From NCBI GenBank assembly GCA_965645245.1, contig OZ287069.1, positions 1,798,001 through 1,862,000 on the forward strand: DNA of 64,000 nucleotides, given 5' to 3'. The notes beneath the pieces are model-generated. The model was not told the DNA's origin and made no database searches. It worked only from the letters and a program-made list of their open reading frames with translations. This document shows, piece by piece, positions 17,978 through 59,623 of this stretch. The stretch's first letter is position 1. Each line of letters starts with the position of its first letter. The DNA comes from Massalongia carnosa (lineage: Eukaryota). The position numbers and the translations under genes are program-made.

Positions 17978-18875
17978 TTTTATGAGAAATAATCCCTACA
18001 AAGCTGACGCTCAGCCTCGGCGGGCTAGCTTCCAAAGGCGTAGGCTGATACAATTGATTGAAGTCAACTTGCTTTCACTCTTGACAGGGCTGAGCATTCT
18101 TTTCGTCCCTGAAGAAAGATTGAAAGGGGGTAGAAATGGGTAGGTAAGTGGGGTATGAAAAGGGAGAATATATGCAAAGAAGATCGGATTCCGTTAAATA
18201 TAAGAGTTCGGAGGATGGGATGATTGATACGCAGGGCACAAGGGTGAACGACAAATCTTCGTCCGGCTGAGGTTGCGACGTCGTATACACAACTAAACCC
18301 CATTGAGCTAGAAGATCACGGGGTGTACCGCGCCATGTCAATCGTTTTACCCCGCCAATCAAACCGGTCAAATCGGCACACAACTATGGTTCAAGACCGC
18401 AAAAATAGGCACGTAACTCTGTATTACATTACTATGTACGGCGCCGCTACAGAAGGAGAGATAGTCACGGGGTACAAGGGCTGGACTCAAAGTTACAAAT
18501 TCTCACGTGATTCTCTTTAAAGGTACATTGGACCTAGCATGAGTTCTGAACGATTGCTTGGTGGTATAGCTATTGATATTAAATGCACATGATAATTTCG
18601 AACTCGCCGATCGAGGACCCCTTTGTGACTTTGACAGAGGCAGCGAGAGCGTAAAGGAAGAAGTTGATAGGTGAGGGGTTGAGAAACTCTCTAGTCAAAT
18701 CCTGCAGAGATGAGGAGGAGTTGGCGGCGCAAGAGAGAGAGAGAGGGGGGGGGTCCAATAAGAAATGATACCATAGCATAGCAATCCGCCCTAACAGTCG
18801 ATGATCACGTTCAAGGCGCCAGGACCAATTGCATAACATCATTGGCAACGCACTGAGTTTCATATCTACGTGAAT

Positions 18876-34400: not shown

Positions 34401-35042
34401 TTGATCTATTTGTAGGTCAGGAAGCTCCTCAATGTTCTGCCAATTGCGTCTCTTGATCTCGGCAATGCTGTCAGGGCGGCCAAGTTTCTTGACAAACTTT
34501 TCATGTAATACTCGTTTGCGTTTTTGAGTATCTTCATCAAGAAGAGCGTTCTCATCCTCAGGATTTAGAGATCTAGAGAAAGTATACCTTGATGTATGAC
34601 TACCACCTTTATGCGTTTTTAATTCAGTTGATGTAACTGAGCTCAGTTTTTGATTTATGGGTTCACCATTTCCACTGGCAGCAACATCCTCAGTAACCTG
34701 ATCTAAATTCAACGTTCGAAGTCTTTTGCGAGGTGGTACGCATGCATGAGAATTGGCATTATCCTGGCTATCGTCATTCTCTTCATCTTCCAAACCTCGC
34801 TTTGGAGTTATAGATCGCTGCCCGGAGACAGCAATATTCTTTTCATCGTCCGATGTGATGAACAAAGCCTCATCTTTGAATGATTGGCTTCTCTCACTGA
34901 GTATCGATGCATACGAGGAACTTGGCAGTAAGGTAGCAGGCGGCTTTGATGATACAGCGTTTTTGGTAAAGAAGTTTGAGATTGATTGCTGTTTCTTTTT
35001 GGCTGAGGTCCCCACTTGCGAAGATCGTTGGGGTAGCACCAT
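31444..35042 (-). CDS. MSH3: DNA mismatch repair protein MSH3 (MutS-beta), 4 exons
   Basis: PIP-box-like QQSISNFF and domain [15 protein letters not shown], which has the MSH3-type GYK signature. Also [28 protein letters not shown] and SYG/LNVARLA. Exons 35042-33057, 33006-31733, 31682-31575 and a last exon ending at TAG 31444. Confidence 0.96.
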
Positions 35043-35148
35043 GATCTATATACATTGACATTGAAGTTTGTACCGAGACCTGCCAAATGCACGCTGCGTT
35101 GAAGGAACGTGAATTTTAAAGAAGAGGAGTGATTTTTAAAATGCGTGT

Positions 35149-35608: not shown

Positions 35609-37537
35609 TCAAGAGCTGAACTTTTTCCGTCTGGGCGGCTCGCTGGCACCAGACGCAGTAATAGGAGATTTGTGGTTACCCTGGCGTTGAAGAAGATGGC
35701 TGTGTTGAAATTGGGCGCTGGGATTCAAAGGATTGAGAGAAGATCCGAATAAAGTAGGATCCACTAAACCTCCAAACTCCATCTGCGGGGGTAAAAAATC
35801 AAAGAACTGCGGCGGATGAGCTTCACTGACTGAAAAGTATCGCTGCGTGCTTCGCTCGGGCATAGGTTGTACCGTTTCATCATCTAGTCGGGCTTGATGC
35901 TCGAAGCTTGGATGAAGGTTTTCTTTGTCGAATGTAGAAACCTGGTTCGAGATCCTTGACGGGCGACTTAGCCGGCCACTTGGCTCCCGGGGTGTTGATG
36001 ATGATCTACCATAGCCCACATAGGGCGATGGACAGGGTTGGGAAGTAACAAATGGTAAACCAAGGCTGTAGGAGGGTAGACCATGTGCACTGGCAATACT
36101 CGAGTCGTGATGCAAACTTGGCAGGAACGGGTAATTGGCAGCCTTGCTGTTGCATTTGGGTACATGTGTACTCGGCTTGCGCTGCTGCTCTATCTCATCA
36201 TCGAAGATAACAAAATCACGGCTTCGTTTAAGGCCAAAATCCCCCGTATTCAGCCTCCACTCAAGGTCAGCTTCATCAACAATGCTGAGTCTTGAATTTG
36301 TCTCTCCTAACTCGGAAAACATTTGCAAGCCTTGCATGGCAGCTCCTCGATTGGATAGGTCGCCCATTTCGCCTTCGTTTGACGGCGCGCTTCGAGTAAG
36401 CGGTTTTCGAGCCCTTGGCCGCTTGGCTATTGTCGGCTCGTTAGTACTGAGGCTACTTAACACAGGTCTGTCGGGTACAGGCCGCCGACGCTTGGGTTTT
36501 GGGGTCAACTCCTTAATTGGGCTACTCTCCACCATTCCTGTGATAAGGCGCTCTTTTTTTAATCCTCCCTCAGGCCAATAAATACGCTCCAAAGGCTCCA
36601 CCTCTGTCGAATTGAGTTCTATCTGCGCCATGATCGCGATGTCTTTTTTCTGATTACGCTTTCGCTGCGCTTCTGGGCAGGCTGAATCGAAAATGTCCAT
36701 CCCAGGCCATTGAACACCTTTCAAGACCGGTGATTGGGTTGGGCCTGCTTCATCGAAAATTGGCAAAATTTCATCTAAATCGGCCTTTCCTAATATGACT
36801 GGAGAAGTGTGGCTGATACCAGGATAGGAGTGGCTAGGTGGATTGGTTTGTGCGAGGCTTGAGTGTATACAAGGATCCGGGTAAGCCATGTGGGCCGGTT
36901 TTTGAGACGACGCTTCTTCATACTCACTATCACTTTCCGCGTTTATATCGAGTTTTTCTCTTGAGGAACGGGTTCCGACTTGCAGACTGACATCCGAGGA
37001 AACGGTCAGAGGTGGGCTAGCAGTTTGGTGCCGTCTCATCCTGGGCACGTACGCTCGATGCCTGGAGGCAATTTCAACTGCTTGGGAATCGCAAATCGGT
37101 GATGGCAGCCTCGGGGCGGATGAAGCAATACCAGGTGGTTGGACCTGAGTGAGCCGTGGATCGATGACTTCTTCCGCCTTTACATCCGTTGGAGGATCCT
37201 CTGCAGTAATTCGACCCCTCACAAAGGTCCTTGACGAGTTTTTCGAAGCCGTCGAAGCCGTGGTGATCTTACGGGGCATCCGGGGTTTGATTTGGATATC
37301 TTTAGATTCCTTGAGTACCATTCGTTGAGACAACAGCTTCTCGATCTGATGTTGAGCATACCACCGATCATATATGTCCAGTTGCAGGCGGACTGCAGGC
37401 TCTTGGCGGCTGCGGACTTGAGCTTTGAAGTAATGCGAGAGGTGGCCCTTGGAACCAACGTGTGTCAATAGATGGGATATATCGCTAAATTCTGGACGCT
37501 TAGGGCAGATATTGCAAAAGAGCGGGACAGAAGCCAT
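35609..37537 (-). CDS. Hypothetical protein with N-terminal C2H2-like zinc finger, 642 aa
   Basis: PLFCNICPKRPEFSDISHLLTHVGSKGHLSHYFK (CxxC...H...H) and an internal conserved-looking block LKGVQWPGMDIFDSA...RKRNQKK. The rest is low-complexity. Confidence 0.8.
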   Translation of the reverse strand: MASVPLFCNICPKRPEFSDISHLLTHVGSKGHLSHYFKAQVRSRQEPAVRLQLDIYDRWYAQHQIEKLLSQRMVLKESKDIQIKPRMPRKITTASTASKNSSRTFVRGRITAEDPPTDVKAEEVIDPRLTQVQPPGIASSAPRLPSPICDSQAVEIASRHRAYVPRMRRHQTASPPLTVSSDVSLQVGTRSSREKLDINAESDSEYEEASSQKPAHMAYPDPCIHSSLAQTNPPSHSYPGISHTSPVILGKADLDEILPIFDEAGPTQSPVLKGVQWPGMDIFDSACPEAQRKRNQKKDIAIMAQIELNSTEVEPLERIYWPEGGLKKERLITGMVESSPIKELTPKPKRRRPVPDRPVLSSLSTNEPTIAKRPRARKPLTRSAPSNEGEMGDLSNRGAAMQGLQMFSELGETNSRLSIVDEADLEWRLNTGDFGLKRSRDFVIFDDEIEQQRKPSTHVPKCNSKAANYPFLPSLHHDSSIASAHGLPSYSLGLPFVTSQPCPSPYVGYGRSSSTPREPSGRLSRPSRISNQVSTFDKENLHPSFEHQARLDDETVQPMPERSTQRYFSVSEAHPPQFFDFLPPQMEFGGLVDPTLFGSSLNPLNPSAQFQHSHLLQRQGNHKSPITASGASEPPRRKKFSS

Positions 37538-38406
37538 TGTTGTATGCCCTCTGACGGCAGTGAGTTGGTCCCAAGGAAGTTATGATGAAGGTACTGCCAA
37601 TGCTTCTTGCTCTGGCGTGAACCGAGTGAAGTGCTCTTCCCCGCTCTATAGCTACGAGTTGGAAGTGATAGTCAGAACGAGGAGCGGAATGAAAGCTAAA
37701 AGGTAGCAACTGCAAGATGGTGGTGAAGAAGCCAAGTAAAGCTTTCACCATTGCCTGAGTACAAGTACTAGCCTAGGTACCTTAGCATTAAGATAGTAGG
37801 CAACGGAGGAAGGGACGCTTGCGGATTGAGTATATGGAAAGAGCAATGAGGGTAAATGACGAGCTTCTTGAACCTCCGAATCGACAATACCGATAGTACC
37901 TACAGGATACCTGGATACTTACAATATCTTGCCCTATTACTTAATCTGTCCATCGGCTGAATCAGATATAAAACAGTTGAGATCGATCCTGTTTCTGTGG
38001 GCAGAACAGTCGGACGTACCAATAACCCTAACGCAAATCAAACCCTCTCTCGCCGCTTCATAAATACTCTCCTAAATACACTCATGTTCGTAGACGGAAA
38101 ATACGAGTTATATTTTGACTCTTCCGTTGCCATATAAAAGGACACAGAACCTTCTTAGGTGAGCGAGAAGGGAGATTTTACAATTCGAAATCCATTGCAG
38201 ACTTGTCCATTGCTGCCATAATCATCCGTACTAAGGGAAGCGTGGAAGAAACATAGAGGCGAACAAGCATACAATCTTCTCTTGCCGTGTATCCCAACTT
38301 CAACAGAGGAAATTGTGAAGAGAGTTATTAGATGACAAGAGGCATAGAGCTTAACAGACACAGCCAAGACTAGTGGGGGCTCTCGAGGCTCCTTGGAGAT
38401 TTCGCT

Positions 38407-40341: not shown

Positions 40342-42488
40342 ATGCCTCGCACTACGTCGCTTTCACTGGCGATGCCCAGTGCTGTCTCACCGGTCAGCAG
40401 TGCAATAACTTCACCCACTGCTTCCGAGCCCACATCAGCCTCACCTTCAAGCCCAAAGGACATGGAGACGAGGTACCATAACAAAGAAACTTACTACAGT
40501 CATACGTTTGGGGTGGGACCTCAAATCGTTGAGCCTCTATCGGCAATAGATGTGCCACCATCACCCAATATCACTTCACTCCCACCGTTTCCGTCTTCAC
40601 CAAAAGTCGCCCAAAAGCATATGCGGGAACAATCAAAATCCTTCTTCTCAAACCTAAAAGCTTCAAAGTCATCGAACCGAGTTCACTACATGGATCCTAC
40701 CATACGAAAGGTGTCGGAAGACACGTCAGGTCCGGAAACGGAACCTAACCGCAATACATTTTACTCGCTACGGAAGAGCCCCGGATCCACACCTGATCTC
40801 AGCACCTCGGCCTTCAGTACAGTTTCGGCAGAGGAGTCCAAGAGTAAGCATGCAACTCCTAGGGCGATCACAGATTTGCTGACTTGGTTGCCATAGCCCC
40901 CTCGGTTCCAACTCATACTATGCAACACAGGCCCGCGGGTTCTACTGTTCTATCAGACAGTGCACTCGTGACCAGCCACACAGAGCCGGTTTCAGGGAAG
41001 AAAGCAAAACCTCGATTCGGTCACCTGTTAAATCGAACACGCTCGATGCGTGTTGATGAAGGAGCTCGAAGATCAAAACCGACAACACCAATCCGCATCA
41101 CAGGCCCCGAGGAGCTGCGTCGGTTGGACGGATCTAACGAGCTGGAAGGTCTCAGAACGGCACCTTTACATCAGGAGAAAGATCGATCATTTCGTGATAT
41201 GATGGGTTCAGCTATTCGCAACAAATCGGCAGACCGTCATCCTTCCTCGAATCATAGTCAGGGGACTATCTCGGTCGGACGGATCGACAAAGACCCAGTG
41301 CACGGGCTTACAATCTCCGCATCGGCAGTTTTTCGAGAGGGCGCAGGCGCTCATCTCATAACCAACTTAAAGAACACATCTACAAAGGCTGCGGATGGTT
41401 TAGGAAAAGCCGGCAAGGGGATATTTGGGAAGATTGCTCGAAGTGGTAGCAGTAACTCAAAGGAAGGGATAGAAGACGAGCATTACGTATGTTCCACGAT
41501 CAACCTACCCTTAGTCGAGCAGACACGCCGAACCCGCATTGCAAAACGACTGGAGGATTCCAAAGACAAAACAGAATTTTGGATGCCCGCTTTACCTTGG
41601 AGGTGTATTGAGTAGGTCCGGTTTTTTATCGTTCTACGTCTAGCTGCTAACTCTACTCTGCAGTTATCTGAATTTTAGAGGATGTGAGGAAGAGGGGCTT
41701 TATAGAATTCCCGGTAGCGGTCCGAGAGTTAGGGAGTGGCAGCAGCGATTTGATCGAGGTCAGTGACTTGATTACTCTCAGTTCAGAACGTTGCTGATAG
41801 CTCCCCAGAGGGAGATATAAACCTTTTCGAGGAGCCTGAGCTGTACGACATCAATATCATCGGCTCGATGTTCAAGGCTTGGCTGCGTGATCTGCCAACT
41901 GAGATACTACCCAAAGCTACCCAAGCCAAAATTGCTCATGAATGTGCTGGTGCAATAGATGTTCCAAAACTGCTAAAGGACGAGCTATCTTCACTACCAC
42001 CTTGGAATTATTATCTGCTGTTCGCCATCACGTGCCATCTCAGTCTCCTCCATGCCTACGTTGATAAGAACAAAATGAATTACAGCAATCTTTGCATCTG
42101 CTTCCAACCCTGTCTCAAAATCGATTCCTTCTGCTTCCAATTCCTCGTCTGTGACTGGCGGAATTGCTGGCAAGGTTGCTGGACGGAGAAGTACTATTTG
42201 GAGGAGGAATACGCAATCCTAGAAGGATCGCATTCCAGCGGTGGTGACAGCTTGGGAGGGTCCACCGTTTTTGGGGATGACCGCTCTCTGGCCTCGTGCG
42301 AGAGTAGCAAGGCAACAATCACCGGACGGACACAAGAACGCGGCCGGCCGCCACAATTGTCTTTGTTGACCGGAAATGATCAACCTCCTGCGTCACATCA
42401 TCGACAACAGAGCGGGCCTCAACTCAGAAATGCGTCGCAGCTCCCTGAGTTAGCCCCCGTCATGCCGTTGTCCCCGATCGGGCTTTGA
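40342..42488 (+). CDS. Rho GTPase-activating protein (RhoGAP), 4 exons
   Basis: FWMPALPWRCI/YLNFRGCEEEGLYRIPGSG contains the arginine finger; also SMFKAWLRDLP and NKMNYSNLCICF. S/P-rich N-terminus. Confidence 0.92.
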
Positions 42489-43970: not shown

Positions 43971-45492
43971 CTAAACCCTCATCAAAACGCTCGCGCGCTC
44001 CAACTCTCCCACCACCCCGCCCCCGCTCAACGTCCACTTCTCCCCCACCAACCCGTCACTGACCCGATGCCGCAAAACCCCGCTGCTGGCCCAATACTCC
44101 AGCAAGCCACGCGCGTCGTCCTTGGTCACGCCGCCGAGGCGCTGGACCGCTAGGCCTGCAGGATGGGACTCGAAGACCGCGAGCACACGGGCGTCGTAGT
44201 GGGCGAAGGGGTTGCGGATGGGAGGGTGATAGGGGGTGGGGATTGACGAGGAGGGGGACGAGGGGGGAAGGGAATGGGGGGAGGCGGATCGAGCCTCTAG
44301 TTCCGCGATACCAAGGTCGAGGGCGGGGACGCGAATTTTGTTGGATTCATTGGTGGCAGCTAGGACGAGACCGCCGTTTGAGAGTTCACGGGCGCCTGAG
44401 AGGAAATCCATGAACCAGCGGATGATGGACAGGTCGTGGGCGTGAATGGGTTGGAAGGCTGGGGTCTTATATGCGGAGTCGCACATCGCGTGGGCGAGGC
44501 CGTCGAGGCAGATGCATAGAGGGGGGCGGTTGGGCAGCGAGAGTTCTTGTAGGAGGAGGTTAAAGATTTGGGGGGCGGAGTCAGGGTCTTGAGAGCCGAG
44601 CAAGGCAAGGCGGGCAAGCGAGATGGAGGGAGGGATGGGGATGGGGATTTGCGGCGTAGGGGGGAGGGTGAGCTTAAGGTCTGCGAGAATGGGGTTGGCG
44701 CGGGAGATGGTGGAGAGGATAGCGGCGATGTACGATTTCTGGGCGTACAGGGTGGGGGAGGTTTGCGGGATGGGGCTGTATTCCGTATGGCCGATTATGA
44801 TGTCTTGGGCTGTTGTTGAGAAACAGAGGGGTCAACTGACGCAAACGATGAATTATAGAGAAAATGGAGGAGAACCCACCTTCGGGAAGATTGATCACAA
44901 CCCAGTTTTTGAGAAATGCCATTGTCATGGCTTGAAGCAACATTGTCGTTTTGCCGCTACCCCTTTCCCCAACAATAACTCTCCGAACCGTCCGCTTTGC
45001 CCCATCCCCGCTCATCTCTTCGATAATCTTCCCATACTGGAGGGTTTCCCGCCGCATCAGCATGGCCGGTCGGCGGAAAAGCCCCCAGCTCTGCGTGGGT
45101 TTGAACGCATCCATCACGCGCAGCTGATCGATGATCGGCCCCGAAATTCCGACCACCTTGCTCCGCAGGCGCGAGTCGACGATCGATTCGGCGGTGAGGT
45201 CCTGCAGGTCCTCGACGGCCAGAGCGTTGACGTTGCTCAGCACGATGCGCTTGCGCATGGCTTTGCGTTCGCCCGGCTGCGGTCGTTTGGATCGCAATTC
45301 CGCCGAGCGCGTCTTCTTTTTCATGACGAAATTGGTTTTCACACCACGGCGCGTGGCCGGTGGTGGGAGTGGCTTGCTCTGTTTCGTGGAGGTGGTGCTG
45401 AAGGCGGCCGCTGGACGGAGGAGTTTCGAAAAGGAGGAAATGGTGGGAAGGGAGGGCCGGAGAAGGCATCTCCAGCAGGTTTGGAGAGACAT
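43971..45492 (-). CDS. RSM23: Mitochondrial small-subunit ribosomal protein mS29 (DAP3/Rsm23), 2 exons
   Basis: Arg/Ser-rich presequence, PGERKAMRKRIVLSNVNAL, FKPTQSWGLFRRP, P-loop GERGSGKT and KWTLSGGGVVGELER. One intron from 44879 to about 44810. Confidence 0.92.
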
Positions 45493-45788
45493 CTGAACTG
45501 CCCGCTGGAGATGCAATCCAGTGTCGTGCTGAGGTGAAAGGGTACAACTGTACTCGTACTTGTGGGCTTGATTTGACCCTGTCGACGTTTCGAGCAGACT
45601 TTTAGAGCAAAGAAACATCACTCTGTAAATTACGGGTATCAAAAGAATATCTTACCGCTAACCTAGCAAAACTTGATGGAATTCCAATCGCACAAAAGCT
45701 TCCAAGATCTCCACAACCAGGCATCAAACCCGGTCCTACACTCCGTGCCTATACATTCATCCTGGAATCCTCCATTGTAAAATAAAGT

Positions 45789-46509
45789 ATGGCGAATCCA
45801 TCCACCGCCGACGTCCTCCGCTCCCAAACTCCCTCTACCACAAAACCAGAACGGCTGTGAGTTTTCCCAAACCAACCCCTTCCTTATACCCACCTAATCT
45901 TCAATTAACACCACTCCCCCACCCTTCTCTATCAGCCCCATAACCGTCACCAAACCAATCCCCTACACCTTCGATCTCGGGAACCTCCTCTGCCATGACC
46001 CCAACCCCCTCCCCTCGGCGCCCACCCCCCGGCAAATCGCTGCCGCAGCCCGTGACTGCGCCCAAGCGCTCATTACGCAACTTCTCACCACCTGCCCCAT
46101 CACCATGCACGCCACCGATGGGGTCCTCATGAACCTCCCGCCCCCGACGTTCCCGCTCCCGCGCGAAAAGCCTCTTCCTATGGAGAAGCCCCCTACAAAA
46201 TGGGAGCGGTTCGCAAAGAAGAAAGGCATCAAGGATGCGAAGCGCGGCGGGACGGAGGGGAAGCTGGTGTACGATGAGAACAAGGGCGAGTGGGTGCCCA
46301 AGTGGGGTTATAAGGGGAGGAATAAGGAGGGAGAGGGGGAGTGGTTGGTGGAGGTGGAAGAGAAGAGGGAGAGGGAGAGGGAGGAGGAGGGGAAAGGGAG
46401 GGGGGTTAGAGGGGTGGGAAGGAAGGATAGGGTGGAGAAGGTAAGGCGGAACGAGCGGGCGCAAAGGGCGAATGAGAGGAGGGCAAGGAAAGGGGGGGCA
46501 GGGGGGTGA
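45789..46509 (+). CDS. RRS1: Ribosome biogenesis regulatory protein RRS1, 2 exons
   Basis: ATG 45789 with intron GTGAGT...ATCAG. Motifs KPIPYTFDLGNLLCHDPNP, ARDCAQALI, LPREKPLP...PTKWERFAKKKGI and LVYDENKGEWVPKWGY. Confidence 0.93.
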
Positions 46510-47150: not shown

Positions 47151-50100
47151 TTACTCCGTACATAATGCTAGCGCCTCACTTAGTATAGCTTTCATCTTCT
47201 CATGATATTTTATCTGTGCAGTTTCTATCACAACGTAAGGCATGAGGTCTCGGTTCTTTAACTCATCTGCCAAACCCTGCTGAGCCTGACTATAAGTGCC
47301 CCTCAGCCTTTGCTTGAGCTGGATAATTCCAGCCTGATACTGGTTGAGATCTTGCTGGCGGGATTTTTCAAACTCCTTGATAAGGCGCTGGCCACTGCGG
47401 CTGTATTCGGATACGAGATTGTGGATGGCGGTCTCCTTGGAGACTAAGTTGCGAATTAGACGCTATGATGATCATTAATTGACGATAAACCTCAAGTTCA
47501 GGAAAAGATTCTACTAACGTGTGATATTTCAAGGAGCACATCCAGCGTCTCCTCCTGGTGAGGTTGGAGCGTAAGTCCCCATTCATCTTGTTCCGCTCCT
47601 CCACTAGCCGAAGACTCTTCTGAACAGGAAGGATCTCCTGTTTGAGAGCTGTCCGAGCTAGAGCTTACTACAGACTTATTATCGCGTTGGGCTCTTTTCG
47701 CTGAACGTGAGCCTATCAATGTCTTGTCGGGATCTTCGACCTGCTTATCAAAGATGTAGCTCGATCTCCGGAGCAGATTAATGAAATTGTTGGAGTGATT
47801 TGGCTTAGTTTCCACAAACGGATCGGCTGGTCTGGTGGCTACGACTACATTGTCTGTGCGAACGTTGACAAATTTGCCACTGGAATGGACCTTGTGAGCT
47901 GTGTATTTCTCAGTGATACCAAAGGATGCATAGGACGAGCCTGGGCGAGATTTGGCATTATTCGATCGCCTAGGCTGAACTTGGGGAGCCAGGGTAAATT
48001 GATGAGATTGTAACAGTGGTACACAGAGATTGGAAACGCTAGACATTTCACCAACTATTAACTGTCCATCCTCGTGGTTACTCATCTGTTTGCTAGCAAT
48101 GATAATCTCGACATCGTCCTCGGCAGAGACGGGATGTTCATGGCCAGAAAGGTCCGTATTTTGAGAGGGAACAAATGGTAAAGGGCTCCCGTTCTCGTCC
48201 ACTCTAGTACTTTGAGAACCAATTTTCTGTGTAGATTTCTGAACCATAGAGATTCTGCGTTTATGAATGCTCTGGGGAGCATCATCCCGTGTTCGGGGTA
48301 CATCTATAGATCCCCGATGGCGCTTGACTGCGGCAACGCCTTTTTCTAAAGTCATAACCGGCTCATCCACATCCGCGATTTTCCTTTTCAGCAATTTATA
48401 CTTTGAGGTTCTGGAAAACCCCTCAGCTTGATCCATCTCTAAAGGTCTTCTTCCACGACCTGGAATGACACCCTGATTTCTTGGTCCTTTACTACTGAAG
48501 CTGATAATATTTGACTTACGACTCTCCGGTACCAAATCTCTACCTGCCACTCCGGGAGACTGCCGGACAGCTTGAGGAGTCTCCATAACAATCCGTCCGC
48601 TGTCTTCAACAGTGATCGCAGGTTCTGATAAGGCAACCAAACCCCCGTCTGACTCCAACGAATCAGGAGAGTACTTCATAGGCCGCGGATTTTTTTGTGG
48701 GCTCCCAATGGCGTTATTCTTTGCTAAGCCGGTCGCTTTTACGTCTCTTGGTCTAGCTACGTCCCTCTCAGCTGGAAATCTTATCTTCGTCTCAGTTCGA
48801 GAGAGAGAGTGGGAAGCAGCAAGTAAAGCTGGTGTAGTGATTCTTGGTTTGCTCGTACCTAGCAAGCTTGCTTTTAGCTTGCTCTTTTGAGCCTGTGGAC
48901 TTCCTATGCTTGATAAAGCGCTCTGTAATTTGGCTGCAACATGAAGGTTAGCCTTCGACGTCATGATGGCGGTAGGTGTTTTTGCTATTCGTCGACTAAT
49001 ATTGCTGTCTGTTGTGTAGCCTAATTCTGGGTTATTGAGAGTGACCTGTTTGGACGCAAGAGTTGACGCTTCAAGAGATCCCCCGGTTTTGGAGTTGCTA
49101 GTAAAATTCGTTGTATCTTGATAAGTGAAGGCAATCGCTTCCTCGAAGAAGTTGTCTTCTGCGCTGTCACCCATGGGGAAGTGGTCGGAATCGAAGGTTT
49201 CGGGTACGAGACTCTCGTTTCTCGGAACTGAGAGAGAGAGAGATAGGGAACGCGGTACTTCGTTCAGGTGGACATATTTCGGCCCTTCTACGATTTCTTG
49301 GCCATTAGAAGCGTTGTCTTCGACCTTATTCAAACAAGTAGAAGAGCTCTCGGGCTGAATATATGGAAAATCGTTGTGAGTTCGATACATCTGATTTTCA
49401 AAACGCGGGGAGGTCGACGTAGTTAGTAGCATACTCTCTTCCTTATTAGGTTCATTATTCGTTGATAATTTAGTTCGTGGTCGTATAGGGTCCTTAGCTA
49501 CAAGGTCGATATCGTCGCTTCCAGATATATTTATTTTATGAACGGACTTGGTTTTGTTGTGAGGGTCCGCAAAATGCCTTTCAGAGTCTTTACCTAAAAG
49601 AAGTGAAGGTCTAGGGTTTCCACTCTTCCCGCCAAATTCTCCTTCGGGTGGAGCTGAAATTTGTCGAGTATCAAGCAACGGTTCGATGTAATCTTCCTCC
49701 TCAATGACTTCTGTTTCTGATTCAACGAGACATTGAATTTTCTTCTTGGCATTGACAGCTGCCACCCGCCTGCTTCTACGCTGAACGATAGGTGTGGCAT
49801 CTTCCACGCTCTTTTTGTCTTGATTGCCTGTCTTGATAAAGCTTCCCTTAATTCTGTCATTATTCTCTTGCTGTGACTGTTGTTTCAAAGGCTGTTCACG
49901 TCGCTGCTGAGGGATACATAGCCCTTCAGCTTCGTCAACACAACCAGTGTTCCAGTATAGTCGCTCCCCGTCATGATGTTCCGTATCTTCCTGTGCTTTC
50001 TTCAATTGGAGGGGTGAAAATTTATCAACGACTGCAGTGGATATTGCATTTTTACGGCTCTGGACTCCAGAGATTATAGAGGAGTCTTGGAATTGTGACT

Positions 50101-52604
50101 TTGAAACAGTGATAGACTTTTTCTTTGGTTTTCTTACAGTTTTGGAAGTCTTCTGGATACTGGTGGCTGCCCTGGAGGTAGATGAACGAACTATTGCAGA
50201 CAAACGTACTTTAGGGGCAGAGCTTGGAAGATCGAACTCGTCTTCATCGTTATCATTTAAGTATTCGGCTCGAAAAACTTCCCCCCGGACCATATTGTTA
50301 TTAGTACGTGAAAGCTCACCCTTTACCGTGTGGTTTTTAGTGGATAAGGGAATTATACGTTTCAATTCCAGCCCCTCATCATCGTCTTTCTTATCATAAG
50401 TTCTAATAGCCTCTTCACACAATGGTTCAGACATCTTTAACAGCCCAACGGGGGGTTCGTCGATATCTCCGTGCGCTTGCTGACTTAGCCTCGTAGGTTG
50501 TTGGTCATTTTGCGTTCCTTTAGCCATGTCATGCTGTTCAAATTGTCCAGGTCTCACACGCATCTTGCCGCTTTTGTCGAAAGGCGGGCTGAGATGATTG
50601 AGCGGTCTTCTATGGAAGATTGCGATATTTGACATTGTATGATGTTTGGTAGCGTCCTCTCCCTCTCGTTCAGCCAAACCATTTTTGAAAGGAGTGTAAT
50701 CTTTTAATGACGCATCGCAGTCTCTTGTCGGAGAGCGTAAAGGATTGTTTGACACTGATTCGCTATCTGGCGGTGACACACCATTAAGCCCGCGTGTAGG
50801 GGTCTCCACTGCATTCTTAGACATGTGCTGGAATATGGGCTCAATATTCATCGAGTCGGCACCAATCGCTTCTGATTGGTCGAGCCTAATAGGACTTGTT
50901 GCCCTCATAACCATAGATATTTGTGGTGCATCCTTCTGATATTTAGCATTTGTCCAAGGGGGATCCCCTAACTGTACATCATTCACTCGTCCATAACCGC
51001 CATTGCCGAAGGAAAGGATCGCCACCGAAGTCATCGACTTCTGATGAAGTTGAGAATCTGCTTGAACCGCCCCGTTCACCATGTTACCAGGAAAAGCTTC
51101 TGCTGGCTGTGCAGCAGGATGCTTGCGTGCATCGCCTTGGGAATGCCGAGAAACATTGTTTAATTGAGACAGGTATCCACGGGGATCCTCAGCAAGCCGA
51201 TGGTTAATCCTTGCAAGGCTCTGCAGGACACGGAAAGCAGATTTTGCTAAAGTAAAAGCCAGTCTGATTGAGTCGGCAGAGCATCCACGAGCATTGAGGT
51301 AGAATGTCTCCTCGGTTGATTTAAATAACCATATTGTAAGGTAGTTCATCGGCGACGAGATGACCTTGGACGGATGATCTTCTACCTCCGTGGTAAACCG
51401 CTCGATTCTATTGGCTGGAATATCGAGGTAAACCGTCGTGGTTGTCATGGACGCTGGAATCACAATATTCAGCTCCTCGGATACTATAACTGGTATCCCG
51501 CTTTGTTCATTGAAAGAATACGTCGTTTCTCCAATGGAGACATCGTAAGCAAATACCACTTTAGAGGTTCTGTTGCATGGTTAAAGGGAACCCAGTTCAC
51601 CGGTTGGCCTACTTACTCTCTAGCGACTGGACTCTGCGGAATCGTCTTCTCTACAAAACCCTCGAAGTCCACAATCCATTGAGATAGCTTGCCATTGGCC
51701 TTGGGAAGCTGTCCGAGTATTTTGAAGTTGGATGGTGAAGGCCAGAGCTCCTTCGTCAGTGTACCGTGAGGCCATATCTCAAAAATAATGAATCCGGCTA
51801 TGGTTTTCAGAGTTGGAAATGATCCGCTAAGAATAAGGCTGCCTAAGCATTGCCTGGGTCAATCTTATCATTAGTGGCCGAAAGACCAAGCCTAAGGGTA
51901 AGCTTGCCATGTGTCTTTCGCCTCCTCGAGCAACAGTTCTCTGTTTTCATCACACCCCCTCACCAGTTCCAATGCAAGGATCCCCATCTAATGGGCAAAG
52001 GATTAGCTCTCGTAGCGCGACTCGTTCCGAAGCCTTACCGCTCTTCTAGTCCACCATGAGACCTCCGATTTTACCAAGGATTGAAACAGGAAACTAAGAG
52101 CTTTGCCCCCAAGTTTGACTTTTTTTTCCGCTTGCATGCTGCTCTCCAAGGGCGAGGCCATAGGGTTTTTATGTAGAGATTGCTATGACGGTCAGCCTGC
52201 AAATTGTAGGTTCTAAGAACCTCTCGTACCGTGAGCAAGTACAAGCCCCTCTGGTATGCTAAGCAGTCCTCAGATAGGCTTATGATCTGATACACCACCA
52301 GGAATGCTGATAGGTCGAGGCGACGACAGATAGTTGTTCCGTCATGATCGCATGCCGCCACAAGGGCTTCCACATAGGTTGTGGGTATATCGTCTCGTTC
52401 CGATAGGTACCGTCTGGTATTCTTTAACGTATTCACTGGCATCCTATTTTTTGTATATTATGACTGGAACACGGCTGTCTGCAGGGACTGATTACTTGAT
52501 ACAGGGACTACTTACTTGATATTCGCCGTACTTTCACGAGACTGGTGTAGAACGCCAATAAAGCCTTGTAGAGATGCAGGCATTCTACGCACCAAACTCG
52601 CCAT
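47151..52604 (-). CDS. Large (about 1708 aa, 7 exons) protein; candidate meiotic chromosome-axis core protein (Red1/Rec10/SYCP2-like)
   Basis: Exons 52604-52516, 52443-52230, 52182-52039, 51987-51908, 51853-51617, 51569-47519 and 47462-47151 sum to 5127 nt in frame. Architecture: helical N-terminus, beta-rich PH-like segment, long disordered middle, C-terminal coiled coil. The gene model is well supported; the function is inferred. Confidence 0.7.
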
Positions 52605-53472: not shown

Positions 53473-54375
53473 TCAGGACAGGATATCCCGTTGCAGATCT
53501 AAATCTTTGAATGGAGACAGTGACACATTGCGGGTGGAAACAGCCGTGGCAAGCATATAATCCTCATCAAACGCTTGTAACTCCATGGCAACGTCTGTCA
53601 CTCTTGCGCCCTTGAAGAAGATGTCATCGACAAGACACGTCTGACCCCATTTCCCGTCTCGGGTGCTTGGCGGCATCTGACTGACAGGGGATGGAACTTG
53701 AACGTTGCGGAACTCTAGGTCTTTTAGCCAAGGTGCCAGCAGAGCTTCCCCGGTCATCTTAACGTATGCTTCCCGGAGACACCAATGGGCGTAGAAATGA
53801 CGAAGTTTGGCTTTGATCTGGTCGGGTAGGTCGGGCTGGCCGGATGGAGAATATGCAATTATATCCGCCACTTCACGGTCTGAGAAGACCACATCGTAGA
53901 CCCTGACCCAAGCATCAAATCCATCCTTCCGGACTGATGCATAGTCTTTTTCCCAGTTCAACTGCACAATATCTGTCCCCAGCTTTTGCGTCTCACCGAC
54001 ACAGCCTACCAGCGCAACCAACGTTCCATGATGCGATATGTTGAACTCGACTTTTAACGCATCCGGGTCTGTTGGTTGGTAGCACGGCTTGCGATTATGG
54101 TCCTCGCTGATAAGCGCTTGAGACCAAGGGACATGGCACGCATGAGCGATGGCATGATGTTTTAGGAGGTGTGAGGCAAGACTGAGTTTCGCGTCTCGAG
54201 GATGATAGAAGCGCAGTACTTTAGCCCTTTCTTCAACCGGAAGTAGACTTAGAGCGTGCTTTGCATCTTCTCCACGAGCCCAACGTGCGGTGGACGTGGG
54301 CTCTTCATCCGAGGTCAGCCAAAGGTGTTGAACGTCTAGGAGCCAACGGAAAACCTTCGGCTTCATTTCGTCCAT
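53473..54375 (-). CDS. npgA: Sfp-type 4'-phosphopantetheinyl transferase (NpgA/Ppt1/Lys5 family)
   Basis: Motifs DAKLSLASHLLK, RKPCY, FNISHHG, LGTDIV and WCLREAYVKMTGEAL. Start taken as ATG 54375. Confidence 0.93.
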   Translation of the reverse strand: MDEMKPKVFRWLLDVQHLWLTSDEEPTSTARWARGEDAKHALSLLPVEERAKVLRFYHPRDAKLSLASHLLKHHAIAHACHVPWSQALISEDHNRKPCYQPTDPDALKVEFNISHHGTLVALVGCVGETQKLGTDIVQLNWEKDYASVRKDGFDAWVRVYDVVFSDREVADIIAYSPSGQPDLPDQIKAKLRHFYAHWCLREAYVKMTGEALLAPWLKDLEFRNVQVPSPVSQMPPSTRDGKWGQTCLVDDIFFKGARVTDVAMELQAFDEDYMLATAVSTRNVSLSPFKDLDLQRDILS

Positions 54376-54834
54376 CCTCTCTTTACCTCGCTCCAAGAAC
54401 AAGCTGGGAGCAGTACAGCACCTTCGATGAGGAATTTCATCAGCAGATGGACCTCATTCTCTATAATATCACGAATCTCCTCCGTGTTTACATCGTATAA
54501 ACAACCATTTCACACGAGAGCTATTCGATAGTTACCGTAGGTATGAATTTCATTCCTTCATGAGAAAGGCAGGCCAAGTGAAGGCTCGGGCGTTCGGCGG
54601 GTCGGACTTTCCTTGGATGACAAAGAAACGCCGTTAATCTATGTACTTAACTGCACATAAAGTCGCGATAGTGGACATTGACAAGTACACGTAGGCAAAA
54701 GGAACGTCGAGCCAGCGGAGATATTGAGTTATAAGAAAAATTCAAGAAAGGGCAGCATAAGTGAGAGAGTAGTTGACTACGGGAGAACGAAGTACAGAGT
54801 ACCAGGAAGCAACAACCAGCTTACTCCTTTCAAC

Positions 54835-55962
54835 ATGCTTTACCCGCCTGCAGCCGACCACGAGGAGGACAATCACGCCATCGCCGCCATCGAGTTAATC
54901 AAAACCATCGTCGCAACACCCAAGTTTACTTATGCAACGAACGAGGTGACACAATGCCTGCCCAGCCCGTCGTTGCAGCGCAAAACTGCATCCTTAACCG
55001 AAACCCCGTTTGACCTAGAAGCGCCTGCGTCGGAGGATGGAGCTCATCTTCACGAGCTCGGTGGAGGACCAGATCCGGAAACGGTCTTTTACCTGGCCTA
55101 TGGCTCCAACCTTTGCGCCGAAACCTTTCAGGGAAAGAGGGGGATTCGGCCCCTGAGCCAGGCCAATGTCGTCGTGCCGGAGTTGGTCATGACCTTTGAC
55201 TTGCCCGGAATGCCTTACCTGGAACCCTGTTTCGCCAATACCAAATATCGCACCGAGAAGAATCCGTCAGGCTTCGAAGGCGACGAGAAAGAGCCTCTCC
55301 TTACCGATTCGCCGACGTCTCGGCGGTATCACAAAACGCGCTGGGACAAGGGTCTAGTGGGCGTAGTGTACGAGGTGACAACGCGAGACTACGCGCACAT
55401 CATCGCTACGGAAGGCGGAGGCGCGAGCTACCAAGATATTCTCGTCGACTGCTACGATCTGCCCCCCGGCGAATCCGTAGTTCCCACCCAACCCACCTCC
55501 CAACCCTTCAAAGCTCACACCCTCTATTCCCCAATCTACCGCCCAGGCTATGCGCTCCTTCGCAAAGACGGCCGCTTATCTCGTCCGGACCCCGATTACG
55601 CTCAAGCCTCGCAACGCTACCTAAACCTTATCACCACCGGCGCCGATGAGCATGCGTTCCCGCAAGAATATAAAGACTATCTTCATCTCATCCGCCCCTA
55701 CACTCTCACCACCTGGCGGCAAAAGGTTGGCCGAGTCATCTTCATGACGGTCTGGTTCCCGTTCATATTCCCACTCTTCGCGCTGAACCGCGTGCTTGCG
55801 GACAAGCGAGGCCGCACCCCCTCGTGGATGCAGGCGCTGATGCGAGCGCTATTCAACTCCGCGTGGGCGAGTTACGACAACGTGTTCAAGCACGTGTTCG
55901 GCGACGGCGAGAGAACTATGAGTATGGACCAGGATGAGGGACGGAAAACCGATGTGGACTAG
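54835..55962 (+). CDS. Gamma-glutamylcyclotransferase, GliK-like, with C-terminal hydrophobic helix
   Basis: Motifs VFYLAYGSNL, FDLPGMPYLEPCFAN, LVGVVYEVT...IIATEGGG and ASQRYLNLITTGADEH. TM-like segment VIFMTVWFPFIFPLFAL. Confidence 0.88.
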   Translation: MLYPPAADHEEDNHAIAAIELIKTIVATPKFTYATNEVTQCLPSPSLQRKTASLTETPFDLEAPASEDGAHLHELGGGPDPETVFYLAYGSNLCAETFQGKRGIRPLSQANVVVPELVMTFDLPGMPYLEPCFANTKYRTEKNPSGFEGDEKEPLLTDSPTSRRYHKTRWDKGLVGVVYEVTTRDYAHIIATEGGGASYQDILVDCYDLPPGESVVPTQPTSQPFKAHTLYSPIYRPGYALLRKDGRLSRPDPDYAQASQRYLNLITTGADEHAFPQEYKDYLHLIRPYTLTTWRQKVGRVIFMTVWFPFIFPLFALNRVLADKRGRTPSWMQALMRALFNSAWASYDNVFKHVFGDGERTMSMDQDEGRKTDVD

Positions 55963-57645: not shown

Positions 57646-59623
57646 TCAACCATGCTTAAAGGTCTGCTTCTCGTCCACAAGCCCTTTGTGATGACGACCG
57701 TGCGTGTTCAGCGCGCTCGCGTCAAGACTCATGCCGCGCGTCACATTTCCCTGACGCGGAAGGCCGATTTCGGGGTCGATGACGGAATGGCCGCGCTGAG
57801 CGGCCTGCACGAGCTCCGGGTTCTGCTCCTTGAGGATAGAGAAGTTGCGCTCGGCGTCCCAGTTCCAGATCGAGTCGGCGGCGAAGAGAAGGTTCATTTC
57901 CTCGAGCGTGCGCTGGTTCGACTCTGGGTAGAGGGCCCACACCATCGGGATGGTGAGGACGTTGCACGCGGCAAAGATGTAGTACGTCTTCTCTTGGAGC
58001 GCCTTAAACATGACAGGGCAGAGCAACGTAAGCCAGCCATTGCCGATGGACCAGCCGACCACACCCCACGCGTTACCTTTGGCGCGCACCTCGAGCGGAA
58101 AGATCTCAGCTGGGTAGAGCCATGGGACGGTAAGCCAGGTGGCCCCAAAGGTTGCGGTGAAGAGAAAGATCATGGCCACGGCACCGGAGCTGTAACCGCG
58201 CGCGGCAGCTGACCCTTGAACTTCGTTCTGGCCCAGGCGCGCAAGGCCGCCAGCGAGGAACATGGCTATGCCTTGAACGACGGAACCCCAGTAAAGGGTC
58301 CAGCGGCGCCCGATACGGTCGAGGGTGAAGACGCAGATGAGAGTAGCGATCTACGAAAGGGCTAGGTCAGTACATCGTGGGGGCTTAGGAAGGGGGGGGT
58401 TGGGTTAGGCTTGGGGAATGTACCATGTAGGTGATGTTGTTGAGACCGGCAATCCACTGAACGTCCTTATCGGCGATACCTGCAGTGCGGAAGATGGTAG
58501 GTGCATAGATGGTAACTCCCGCAATGCCAATCCATTCCTGCATAATCTGTAGCCAGATGACCAATTGGACGCGACGACCCGTGTGCAGCTTGCCCGACCC
58601 AATCCCAAACAGCATGGCATAGTATGATTGCGACTTGGCGGTCTTACGCTCGAGATCTGCAATGTTGCGGATATCTTGGAACTCAACTTCGGCCTGGCCA
58701 ACGTCTTCACCGGTTTCGCCGCGGAGGCGGCCTAAGATGTAGCGAGCTTCCTCCTCGCGCCCGACTTTCATAAGCCAACGGGGAGACTCAGGAAAGAACC
58801 AGACGATGGCCAACAAGAATATGAGCGGGATGATCTGGAAGGCAATGGGGAAGCGCCACACGAAGGAGCCATTGCCACCGGTGTAGAACTTGCATCCACT
58901 TGTAGTTTATCGTTAGCTCATATTTCGAGTCAAGCGGTATTCGGAGCTGGAGACGTACAACTCCAGCCAGTAAGCAACCACGACACCGAAGATGTTGAGG
59001 GTAAATTCAATGGCGACGAACTGTCCACGCGATTTGTGTTCCGCAGTCTCCGTAGCCCACACGGGAACAATGGCGTTCAAAATGCCAGTTCCCCACCCGT
59101 TGATCAAGCGAGCTTGAAAATGTTGGTGGGATCAGCGGGTCAAAGCGTACTCTTATCCAGACTATCCGGGTCGATCAACATACCGAAGATCATCCAAACA
59201 TGATTCTGCGCAGAAGTTTGGAGCGAAGCACCGATGATTGCCCATAGCGCACCAAGAGCGATGGTCTTGATACGGCCATATCGATCGCCGAACGAGCCTC
59301 CCACAAGACACCCTACTAGAGTACCAACATAGTAGATCGACACCTTGATCGATTAGTGCTGTGTTAGGGGTTTCGACAGAGGTTATACATACGATTCCAC
59401 CCTGTAGCAGGGTGTTATCAATGACAGGTGCACCAGTATCTTGGTTTCTATGGCCAAATTTCATGGTTTTATAGTAATAATCGGGAGCGTTGTTTACACC
59501 ACCCATCATGCCCTGATCATAACCGAAGAAGAAGATTGACAAGCCGGCGATGCAGTTGATGGCAATCAACAAACTGCGTTTCTGCTGCTTGTGGACCACG
59601 TTCGACCTCGGGATTAGATCCAT
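57646..59623 (-). CDS. MFS sugar porter (STL1-like sugar/polyol:H+ transporter), multi-exon
   Basis: Motifs FFGYDQGMMGGV, GDRYGRIK, VPVWATETAEHKSRG, WRFPIAFQ, PESPRWL, DRIGRR, WLYPAEIFPLEVRAKG and YPESNQRTLEEM. Confidence 0.93.

What the first reader, a model, noticed from the sequence alone, without database searches (positions are those of the whole stretch)
47151..52604. Hidden 7-exon gene with the architecture of a Red1/Rec10/SYCP2 meiotic axis core protein
Seen: five small 5' exons and one 3' exon, which the ORF track misses or fragments, splice in frame onto the 1353-aa ORF to give about 1708 aa. The product has four parts. First, a helical N-terminus (...RELLLEEAKDTWQCLGSLILSGSFPTLKTIAGFIIFEIW...QWIVDFEGFVEKTI). 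Second, a run of short beta strands closed by a helix (KVVFAYDVSIG...VYLDIP...YLTIWL...FYLN...SIRLAFTLAKSAFRVLQSL). Third, about 1200 aa of S/K/T-rich disorder. Fourth, a C-terminal helical/coiled-coil domain (WGLTLQPHQEETLDVLLEISHRLIRNLVSKETAIHNLVSEYSRSGQRLIKEF...). Established: axis core proteins (budding-yeast Red1, fission-yeast Rec10, mammalian SYCP2) combine an ARM-like plus PH-like N-terminal domain with a HORMAD-binding closure motif and a disordered linker; Red1 and SYCP2 end in a coiled coil. They diverge so fast that they are often left 'hypothetical'. Inference: this is the species' axis core gene, and its intact frame would argue for retained meiosis.
Basis: partly seen in the sequence, partly recalled or inferred. 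Interest (0 to 1): 0.75.

Follow-up and report, generated by a model that had tools for sequence, protein, structure and literature searches.

The report
Fungal Red1-type meiotic axis gene
This intron-split fungal gene, probably from a lichen-forming fungus, most likely encodes Red1, the backbone protein on which chromosomes are organised during meiosis; it is an ordinary but usually unlabelled member of a family already described in filamentous fungi.

Summary
The gene is real. Seven minus-strand exons (52604-47151) give 5127 nt and 1708 aa with no internal stop. The annotated Pseudocyphellaria aurata protein P0012 matches all seven exons at 40-56% identity in the folded parts.

The modelled N-terminus of P0012 is ARM-like plus PH-like. 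Its best structural match is the SYCP2 N-terminal domain, PDB 5IWZ: Foldseek E 5.5e-7, the only hit under 1e-3; VIA Z 16.0 over 315 residues, next 11.6. The window's own beta segment folds as PH. A shortened candidate closure motif follows it. Then come a ~1200-aa linker with four family-wide patches and a ~125-aa amphipathic helical end.

Relatives span Pezizomycotina (380 hits); none of the 20 looked up is named Red1. The same genome holds Hop1, Rec8 and Rad21 genes.

Verdict: the species' Red1/Rec10/SYCP2 axis core (~0.92). Pezizomycotina Red1 with this architecture is already in print, so this is a new member of a known kind. No direct sequence link to yeast Red1 was obtained, and an intact frame is weak evidence of ongoing meiosis.

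The parts
52516..52604 (-). exon 1 (ATG at 52604; aa 1-30)
   Evidence: 40% identity to P0012
52230..52443 (-). exon 2 (aa 30-101), ARM-like helices; preceded by 72-nt GT-AG intron 1 without a consensus branch site
   Evidence: 45% identity to P0012 with no gap
52039..52182 (-). exon 3 (aa 102-149), ARM-like helices
   Evidence: 40%
51908..51987 (-). exon 4 (aa 150-176); followed by 54-nt GC-AG intron 4 (51907-51854)
   Evidence: 56%
51617..51853 (-). exon 5 (aa 176-255), end of the ARM-like region
   Evidence: 41%
47519..51569 (-). exon 6 (aa 255-1605): PH-like domain, candidate closure motif, long linker, first helix of the C-terminal domain
47151..47462 (-). exon 7 (aa 1606-1708 + TAA), C-terminal helical/coiled-coil domain
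   Evidence: (41%)
51646..52574 (-). ARM-like helical domain (aa ~11-245, spread over exons 1-5)
   Evidence: helices 11-245 in the model of colinear homologue P0012; aligns to 5IWZ together with the PH part
51185..51562 (-). PH-like domain (aa 258-383): beta sandwich closed by a helix
   Evidence: window's own sequence modelled at pLDDT 87.2, pTM 0.77; PH/PTB/FERM-type matches up to Z 11.7
51146..51175 (-). candidate Hop1-binding closure motif (aa 387-396, YLSQLNNVSR), two residues shorter than the family motif
   Evidence: profile score 12.0, rank 79 of 150 family windows, 0 of 300 shuffles reach it, next best site in the linker 1.3; function inferred from position
49724..49780 (-). conserved linker patch B (aa 852-870, basic helix-like)
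   Evidence: 102 of 147 long proteins (query included)
48470..48526 (-). conserved linker patch E (aa 1270-1288, NIISF...GPRNQG)
   Evidence: 121 of 147
48173..48220 (-). conserved linker patch F (aa 1372-1387, VDENGSP)
   Evidence: 122 of 147
47759..47908 (-). conserved linker patch G (aa 1476-1525; hairpin-like part, DPF, then an amphipathic helix-like part)
   Evidence: 116 of 147
47154..47587 (-). C-terminal helical domain (aa 1583-1708, across intron 6)
   Evidence: 137 of 152 long proteins match the profile, 69 over most of its length; hydrophobic period 3.65 residues

Best explanation
The gene encodes this fungus's Red1/Rec10/SYCP2-type meiotic chromosome axis core protein. SHOWN: the 7-exon frame; an ARM-like + PH-like N-terminal module most like SYCP2's; a conserved short motif right after the PH helix; a ~1200-aa poorly conserved linker with four family-wide patches; a ~125-aa amphipathic helical C-terminus; Hop1, Rec8 and Rad21 genes in the same genome. 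INFERRED from yeast, mammalian and Sordaria work: in meiotic prophase the C-terminal coiled coil forms tetramers that join end to end into the axis filament. The post-PH motif is captured by the Hop1 HORMA domain and loads Hop1 on the axis. The ARM-PH module and the linker patches dock Rec8-cohesin, Mek1 and break/crossover factors. The protein thereby holds chromatin loops on an axis, promotes Spo11 breaks and inter-homologue repair, and supports synapsis.
For: Fold: the model of P0012 1-404 (pLDDT 66.5, pTM 0.59) has 5IWZ as Foldseek rank 1, E 5.5e-7, the only match under 1e-3 of at least 500 counted. In VIA-align against 48,161 chains it is rank 1: Z 16.0, rmsd 5.6, 315 aligned, model 8-390 on chain 19-394; next Z 11.6 covers only the helical part. 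Language-model features: four of the nine listed clusters carry SYCP2_SLD, SYCP2_ARLD or Red1 (PF07964) families at scores 0.77-0.87 (under 0.9, so a lead only). Tromer et al. give ARM-end + full PH + C-terminal coiled coil as the best criterion for SYCP2-type proteins (10.1101/2021.02.06.430040). Post-PH motif: the strict pattern occurs in 43 of 149 family windows against 1 of 544 downstream control windows. It sits where the yeast closure motif sits (Red1 345-362, directly after PH 232-344). Linker: 1199 aa, family median 1277 in 123 proteins, close to the 1032-aa median and four conserved patches reported for Pezizomycotina Red1. Partners: Hop1 on C17, Rec8-like on C11 and Rad21-like on C18.
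Against: No direct sequence link to a characterised Red1, Rec10 or SYCP2. No Red1 or SYCP2 Pfam family was hit on the window ORF, on 6 of 6 homologues or on 34 of 34 more. Profile searches of PDB sequences with A1 and A4 did not return SYCP2. The two-domain model is of the homologue P0012, not the window's spliced protein, and is of moderate confidence (residues 213-257 under pLDDT 50; TM-score to 5IWZ 0.44). The PH domain alone is not diagnostic: 5IWZ is Foldseek rank 6 at E 0.053 and is not among the top 50 VIA rows. The window's post-PH motif fails both regular-expression patterns and scores only with a 2-residue deletion; the pattern was chosen after seeing the alignment. I could not check that A. 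fumigatus B0XRH4, the preprint's example, belongs to my hit set. One Botrytis cluster member carries an automatic 'Rif1 N-terminal domain' label.
Confidence: 0.92

Rival explanations
1. A SYCP2-family protein that has been repurposed or has lost its meiotic role in this lineage, for example a mitotic or parasexual chromosome protein (as KKT17/18 became kinetochore parts in kinetoplastids), or a slowly decaying relic.
For: Precedent for repurposing in 10.1101/2021.02.06.430040. The candidate closure motif is shorter than in close relatives, scoring 12.0 against 18.5-32.2 in P0002-P0013. My Hop1 model ends without a clear closure motif. Intact meiotic genes persist in the apparently asexual lichen genus Lepraria.
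Against: All domains and all four family-wide patches are kept, in order. The motif score is mid-range for the family, rank 79 of 150. Sordaria and Neurospora Hop1 also lack a clear closure motif and Sordaria is sexual (PMC11244814). Sordaria Red1 is needed for Hop1 axis loading (PMC12758814).
Confidence: 0.05
2. An unrelated ARM/HEAT + PH scaffold protein (for example Rif1-like) whose likeness to SYCP2 is a chance pairing of two common folds.
For: Both folds are common: 196 chains reach Z 8 or more. Identity to 5IWZ is 8-12%. One relative has an automatic Rif1 label. Some relatives carry only the generic Pfam PH_25 family (3 of 34).
Against: Only 5IWZ aligns across both domains in one piece (315 residues) and it stands 4.4 Z units above the next row. 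The language-model search also points to SYCP2 and Red1 clusters. P0133, the representative of the Rif1-labelled cluster, has no Rif1 Pfam hit at E up to 1. The whole architecture and linker length fit published Pezizomycotina Red1.
Confidence: 0.02
3. The gene model is wrong: the 5' exons are a separate gene or not spliced as modelled, and the product is a PH-first 1353-aa protein.
For: Intron 1 lacks a consensus branch site and intron 4 is GC-AG. Many database relatives start at the PH domain. Sordaria Red1 is described with its Hop1-binding motif at residues 1-30 and no ARM or PH mentioned.
Against: Annotated P0012 and P0036 carry all five 5' exon equivalents in one chain, and P0012 aligns without gaps at the junctions. 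The PH-first entries begin at the position of intron 5, as intron-blind gene calling would give; the window's own P0001 is such a case.
Confidence: 0.01

Closest known systems
Pezizomycotina Red1 as described for Aspergillus fumigatus (B0XRH4) in bioRxiv 10.64898/2026.07.03.736430
   Same: ARM/PH N-terminus, greatly expanded linker (reported median 1032 aa, n = 36), four conserved linker patches (DCP1-4), C-terminal coiled coil.
   Different: Linker here is 1199 aa. That my patches B, E, F and G equal DCP1-4 is inferred; the figure and supplement were not seen. The main text does not contain the words 'lichen' or 'Lecanoromycetes'; its Dataset S1 might still list such species.
Mouse SYCP2 N-terminal domain (PDB 5IWZ; ARLD + SLD)
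   Same: Tandem ARM-like + PH-like fold in the same order, aligned over 315 residues.
   Different: 8-12% identity, rmsd 5.6 in VIA. SYCP2 pairs with SYCP3; no SYCP3-like partner was sought or found here.
Saccharomyces cerevisiae Red1 and Schizosaccharomyces pombe Rec10
   Same: Order ARM, PH, closure motif, disordered linker, coiled coil. The post-PH motif has a hydrophobic-Ser core followed by hydrophobics, like the yeast KIS-containing peptide printed in PMC5758881.
   Different: About twice as long. The Lys of KIS is replaced and the motif is shorter in this protein. No Pfam Red1 match. A yeast-type cohesin-interacting motif is reported as not detectable in Pezizomycotina.
Sordaria macrospora Red1 (SMAC4_01425; PMC12758814)
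   Same: Filamentous-ascomycete axis core with a predicted Hop1-binding motif and C-terminal coiled coil; needed for Hop1 axis loading.
   Different: 839 aa, with the Hop1-binding motif at residues 1-30; the words armadillo, PH domain and pleckstrin do not occur in the main text. The window's protein keeps the full ARM-PH module. None of the 17 looked-up hits with an organism name is a Sordariomycete (class assignment from my own knowledge).

Membership tests
SYCP2-type axis core (Red1/Rec10/SYCP2/ASY3) | N-terminal ARM-like repeats directly followed by a PH-like domain | tested here: met
   on homologue P0012 (40-56% identical per exon); PH part also on the window's own sequence
SYCP2-type axis core (Red1/Rec10/SYCP2/ASY3) | C-terminal coiled coil | tested here: met
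   ~125-aa conserved region, hydrophobic period 3.65 residues (17.8 times mean power); sequence pattern only, not modelled
SYCP2-type axis core (Red1/Rec10/SYCP2/ASY3) | long, poorly conserved linker between the two | tested here: met
   1199 aa; 25-37% identity to P0012; Ser 11.7%; no disorder predictor run
SYCP2-type axis core (Red1/Rec10/SYCP2/ASY3) | HORMA-binding closure motif just after the PH domain | tested here: inconclusive
   a family motif sits at that position (43 of 149 windows vs 1 of 544 controls) and the window has a shortened version; binding to Hop1 was not modelled because the HORMA region is split by introns
SYCP2-type axis core (Red1/Rec10/SYCP2/ASY3) | significant profile similarity (ARM end + PH) to established members | tested here: inconclusive
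   no Pfam Red1/SYCP2 hit; no PDB sequence hit; language-model scores 0.77-0.87; no HMM-HMM search against those families was available
SYCP2-type axis core (Red1/Rec10/SYCP2/ASY3) | coiled-coil tetramer that assembles into filaments | not tested
   property of yeast Red1 as cited in 10.64898/2026.07.03.736430; no model or experiment here
Fungal Red1/Rec10 | Rec8-binding cohesin-interacting helix in the linker | tested here: inconclusive
   candidate conserved patches listed; none can be matched to the yeast motif by sequence; see Tried and rejected for the one modelling job
Fungal Red1/Rec10 | single copy, co-occurring with Hop1 and Rec8 | tested here: met
   1 match each for the PH segment and exon 7 in G000 (close copies only); Hop1 and Rec8-like genes present
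Fungal Red1/Rec10 | meiosis-specific expression and axis localisation | not testable with these tools
   needs transcript data from ascomata and cytology

The most novel reading that the evidence does not exclude
One of the four family-wide linker patches, most plausibly patch G (aa 1476-1525, ending in an amphipathic helix-like stretch), is the still-unidentified Pezizomycotina cohesin (Rec8)-binding motif, or a replacement coupling device. The patch coordinates given here would then make the open question raised in bioRxiv 10.64898/2026.07.03.736430 directly testable.
Probability: 0.2. Interest if true: 0.5.

Novelty: new member of a known kind. Interest (0 to 1): 0.2.

Why it matters
Practical rather than conceptual. 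The gene and its relatives are still filed as hypothetical, uncharacterised or under generic domain names: none of 20 looked-up proteins is named Red1. Intron-blind callers also cut off the ARM domain. A correct model adds an axis-core marker to meiosis gene surveys of lichen fungi; the Lepraria survey (PMC11515122) has no occurrence of 'red1'. It also gives coordinates for a candidate closure motif and four conserved linker patches to test for Hop1, Rec8, Mek1 or Rec114 binding. It does not by itself show that the species is sexual.

Tried and rejected
(1) Transcripts: no RNA holder listed. The three runs laid (X1, X3, X4; 3 of 4 listed) were contigs with no joints and one single-letter difference. 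X1 and X3 may be this DNA's source. None of this bears on expression or splicing.
(2) Complex job, Rec8 C-terminal domain with linker aa 1262-1546 (patches E-H): no answer, ipSAE 0.00 in two runs, controls not folded, alignments not used. It is no evidence for or against binding. Patches B-D were not included.
(3) Pfam scans found no Red1/SYCP2 family. Searches of G000 with PF07964 and PF25380 rang nowhere, controls included, so they are uninformative about a second orthologue.
(4) The ESM Atlas with the window's PH piece alone gave only bacterial clusters under 0.9.
(5) PDB sequence searches with profiles A1 and A4 gave one unrelated weak row each.
(6) Folding the PH domain alone gives generic PH/PTB/FERM matches; 5IWZ is absent from the top 50 VIA rows, which does not exclude it.
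(7) Alternative intron-1 acceptors at 52479, 52475 and 52464 lead to early stops in the frames read and were rejected.
(8) Earlier scan findings: none returned.
(9) A Hop1-closure motif model was not attempted, since the HORMA domain is spread over several exons.
(10) dN/dS could not be computed: no DNA of homologues was held.
Full report
OBSERVATION. The region 47151-52604 holds one long minus-strand ORF (47498-51580, 1360 aa stop to stop) and several short flanking frames. Reading donors and acceptors gave seven exons: 52604-52516, 52443-52230, 52182-52039, 51987-51908, 51853-51617, 51569-47519 and 47462-47151. They total 5127 nt and translate to 1708 aa with no internal stop. Introns are 47-72 nt; intron 4 is GC-AG and intron 1 has no consensus branch site. 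The test is homology. P0012, an NCBI-annotated hypothetical protein of Pseudocyphellaria aurata (1870 aa), was found among 35 hits of 4782 candidates. It matches the window exon by exon and aligns to the model without gaps at the five 5' junctions, at 40-56% identity per 5' exon, 50% over the PH segment and 41% over exon 7. P0036 (Lecanora helva) also carries all 5' exon equivalents; the model P0037 (Gallowayella concinna) lacks part of them. These annotations are gene predictions too, and I do not know their transcript support. The window lies at G000:C3:1798001-1862000 in a 52-Mb, 25-contig genome. From the closest named relative it is probably a lichen-forming Lecanoromycete (inference).

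FOLD. I modelled P0012 1-404 with a 7-row alignment (pLDDT 66.5, pTM 0.59). It shows helices from 11 to 245, a beta sandwich from 258 to 363 and a closing helix 366-383. Foldseek ranks the SYCP2 N-terminal domain 5IWZ first, at E 5.5e-7, the only match under 1e-3 (TM-score 0.44, 12% identity). VIA-align against 48,161 chains also ranks it first: Z 16.0, rmsd 5.6, 315 residues aligned across both domains; the next row has Z 11.6 and covers only helices. The window's own beta segment folds confidently as a PH-like domain (pLDDT 87.2, pTM 0.77). Alone it matches generic PH/PTB/FERM domains, with 5IWZ at Foldseek rank 6 and not in the top 50 VIA rows. So the tandem, not the PH domain, is the diagnostic feature. 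The ESM Atlas feature search with P0012 1-385 listed nine clusters. The top three are unnamed eukaryotic clusters (0.89-0.96). Four carry SYCP2_SLD, SYCP2_ARLD or Red1 families (0.77-0.87, lead level), and two carry other PH families.

FAMILY. A profile search of 1.84 billion representatives gave 380 proteins at E up to 0.001, 199 at 1e-10 and 29 at 1e-30; the best 150 were listed. I looked up 20 of them; 17 have an organism name. They include Candelaria, Candelina, Dirinaria, Agyrium, Arachnomyces, Helicocarpus, Emydomyces, Botrytis, Mollisia, Pseudogymnoascus, Lophium, Patellaria, Tothia and Sphaerosporella. By my own knowledge all are Pezizomycotina and none is a Sordariomycete. None is named Red1; one cluster member has an automatic Rif1 label. 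Pfam finds nothing on the window ORF or on 6 homologues, and PH_25 on 3 of 34 further relatives, 2 above cut-off. No direct sequence link to characterised Red1, Rec10 or SYCP2 was obtained.

MOTIFS. A short motif (hydrophobic-Ser, 3-5 residues, then [ILV]-D-[IV]-S) follows the PH helix in many relatives. The strict pattern occurs in 43 of 149 post-PH windows, against 1 of 544 downstream windows and 0.9% of shuffles; a looser one in 83 of 149, against 39 of 544 and 19% (patterns chosen after seeing the alignment). The window's protein matches neither pattern. A profile allowing a two-residue deletion scores aa 385-398 at 12.0 (rank 79 of 150; 0 of 300 shuffles reach it; next best site in the linker 1.3). 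This is the position of the yeast closure motif, so I call it a candidate. Among 147 proteins of 900 aa or more (query and near-duplicates included), four linker patches are family-wide: B 102, E 121, F 122 and G 116. Four more are narrower, at 26-46. The C-terminal ~125 aa match 137 of 152 proteins of 700 aa or more, 69 over most of the profile, with a hydrophobic period of 3.65 residues. The linker is 1199 aa here, with a median of 1277 (range 421-1544) in 123 proteins.

GENOME CONTEXT. The PH segment and exon 7 each match once in G000; these searches see only close copies. HORMA matches lie on C17 and C6. The C17 gene can be read as a 599-aa Hop1 with nine introns; its HORMA exon is confirmed by Pfam, while the PHD-like and winged-helix labels, and Mad2 for C6, are my own reading. 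Two kleisin C-termini are present; I read C11 as Rec8 and C18 as Rad21 from recalled family patterns. Neighbours in the window are housekeeping genes: DAP3, RRS1 and a phosphopantetheinyl transferase.

MECHANISM. Shown: gene structure, fold, motif positions, co-occurrence with partners. Inferred from established work: the coiled coil forms tetramers and filaments, the closure motif recruits Hop1, and the ARM-PH module and linker motifs bind Mek1 and Rec8-cohesin (10.64898/2026.07.03.736430; 10.64898/2026.01.19.700424; 10.1101/2022.04.06.487319; PMC5758881). In Sordaria, Red1 is needed for Hop1 axis loading and continuous kleisin axes (PMC12758814). Confidence in orthology is about 0.92; rivals are given separately.

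COMPARISON AND NOVELTY. The family assignment is in print. Tromer et al. detected SYCP2/3-family orthologues in many fungi, Neurospora and Fusarium included. The July 2026 preprint describes Pezizomycotina Red1, using A. fumigatus, as ARM/PH + expanded IDR (median 1032 aa, n = 36) with four conserved patches + coiled coil, and reports no recognisable cohesin-interacting motif. I could not verify that its example protein is in my hit set; the bioRxiv supplements were closed, and its Dataset S1 may already list lichen orthologues. My search for lichen + meiosis genes + Red1 + Lecanoromycetes (3 of 4 terms) listed one paper, with no occurrence of 'red1'; that search covers only the open library. 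The finding is a new member of a known kind. The step from intact frame to retained meiosis is weak: Lepraria keeps all nine meiosis-specific genes surveyed although sex has not been observed in it.

PAPERS, WHAT I SAW. PMC12758814: passages and section 22. 10.64898/2026.07.03.736430: passages, sections 12 and 37. 10.64898/2026.01.19.700424: abstract, sections 5 and 6. 10.1101/2021.02.06.430040: passages. PMC11244814, PMC5758881 and 10.1101/2022.04.06.487319: passages. PMC11515122: abstract and passages. Other papers: search listings only. No figures or supplements were seen.

SCORES. Interest 0.2; novelty: new member of a known kind. Most novel reading: a conserved linker patch is the missing Pezizomycotina cohesin-binding motif (probability 0.2, interest 0.5).

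Noticed in passing
L005:253-2548 (G000:C17, about 1062050-1064350, + strand): The Hop1 gene reads as 599 aa with nine introns and ends after a basic patch without a clear closure motif. About 130 nt downstream lies a short Ser-Ser-Glu-Pro-hydrophobic stretch resembling the Red1-family post-PH motif; it would be in frame only through a weak 134-nt intron. It may be a real last exon, a remnant or chance; no Hop1 homologues were held for comparison.
   Followed up: partly
window 51907-51854 (- strand): GC-AG intron in a meiotic gene, supported by gap-free alignment to P0012 and P0036.
   Followed up: yes
proteins (e.g. P0120, P0125, P0127, P0129, P0134-P0137, P0145, P0151-P0153): A group of relatives matches the profile only from position ~100, at residue ~43-45, i.e. 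a shorter or divergent ARM region; many also have a shorter C-terminal helix. The two named ones (Lophium, Tothia) are Dothideomycetes by my knowledge. With Sordaria's ARM-PH-less Red1 this hints at stepwise N-terminal reduction.
   Followed up: no
P0016, P0019, P0021, P0025, P0026: Some relatives appear to carry two or more copies of the post-PH motif within ~80 aa, i.e. possibly tandem closure motifs; seen by eye, not counted.
   Followed up: no
window 49121-49153 and 48905-48943 (- strand): Two narrower conserved helix-like linker patches (C, aa 1061-1071; D, aa 1131-1143), found in 26 and 31 of 147 long proteins; further candidates for partner binding.
   Followed up: partly
window 47519-51559 vs P0001: A near-identical catalogued protein differs at 10 positions over 1346 aa, all in the linker and none in the PH domain (the GTG start read as Met not counted).
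   Followed up: no
window 2779-5414, 14411-17995, 18879-20429, 21444-23793, 31732-35045, 41772-42485, 43974-46506, 53476-55959, 57649-58350: Ordinary fungal genes: Zn2Cys6 transcription factor, kinase-RNase (Ire1-type), TCP-1 chaperonin subunit, RSN1/PHM7-type channel, MutS homologue, RhoGAP, DAP3, RRS1, phosphopantetheinyl transferase, AIG2-like protein, sugar transporter.
   Followed up: no
window 35612-37579 (- strand): A 656-aa open frame with no Pfam family at E 0.01; it starts with a Cys/His pattern that looks like a C2H2 zinc finger (my reading).
   Followed up: no
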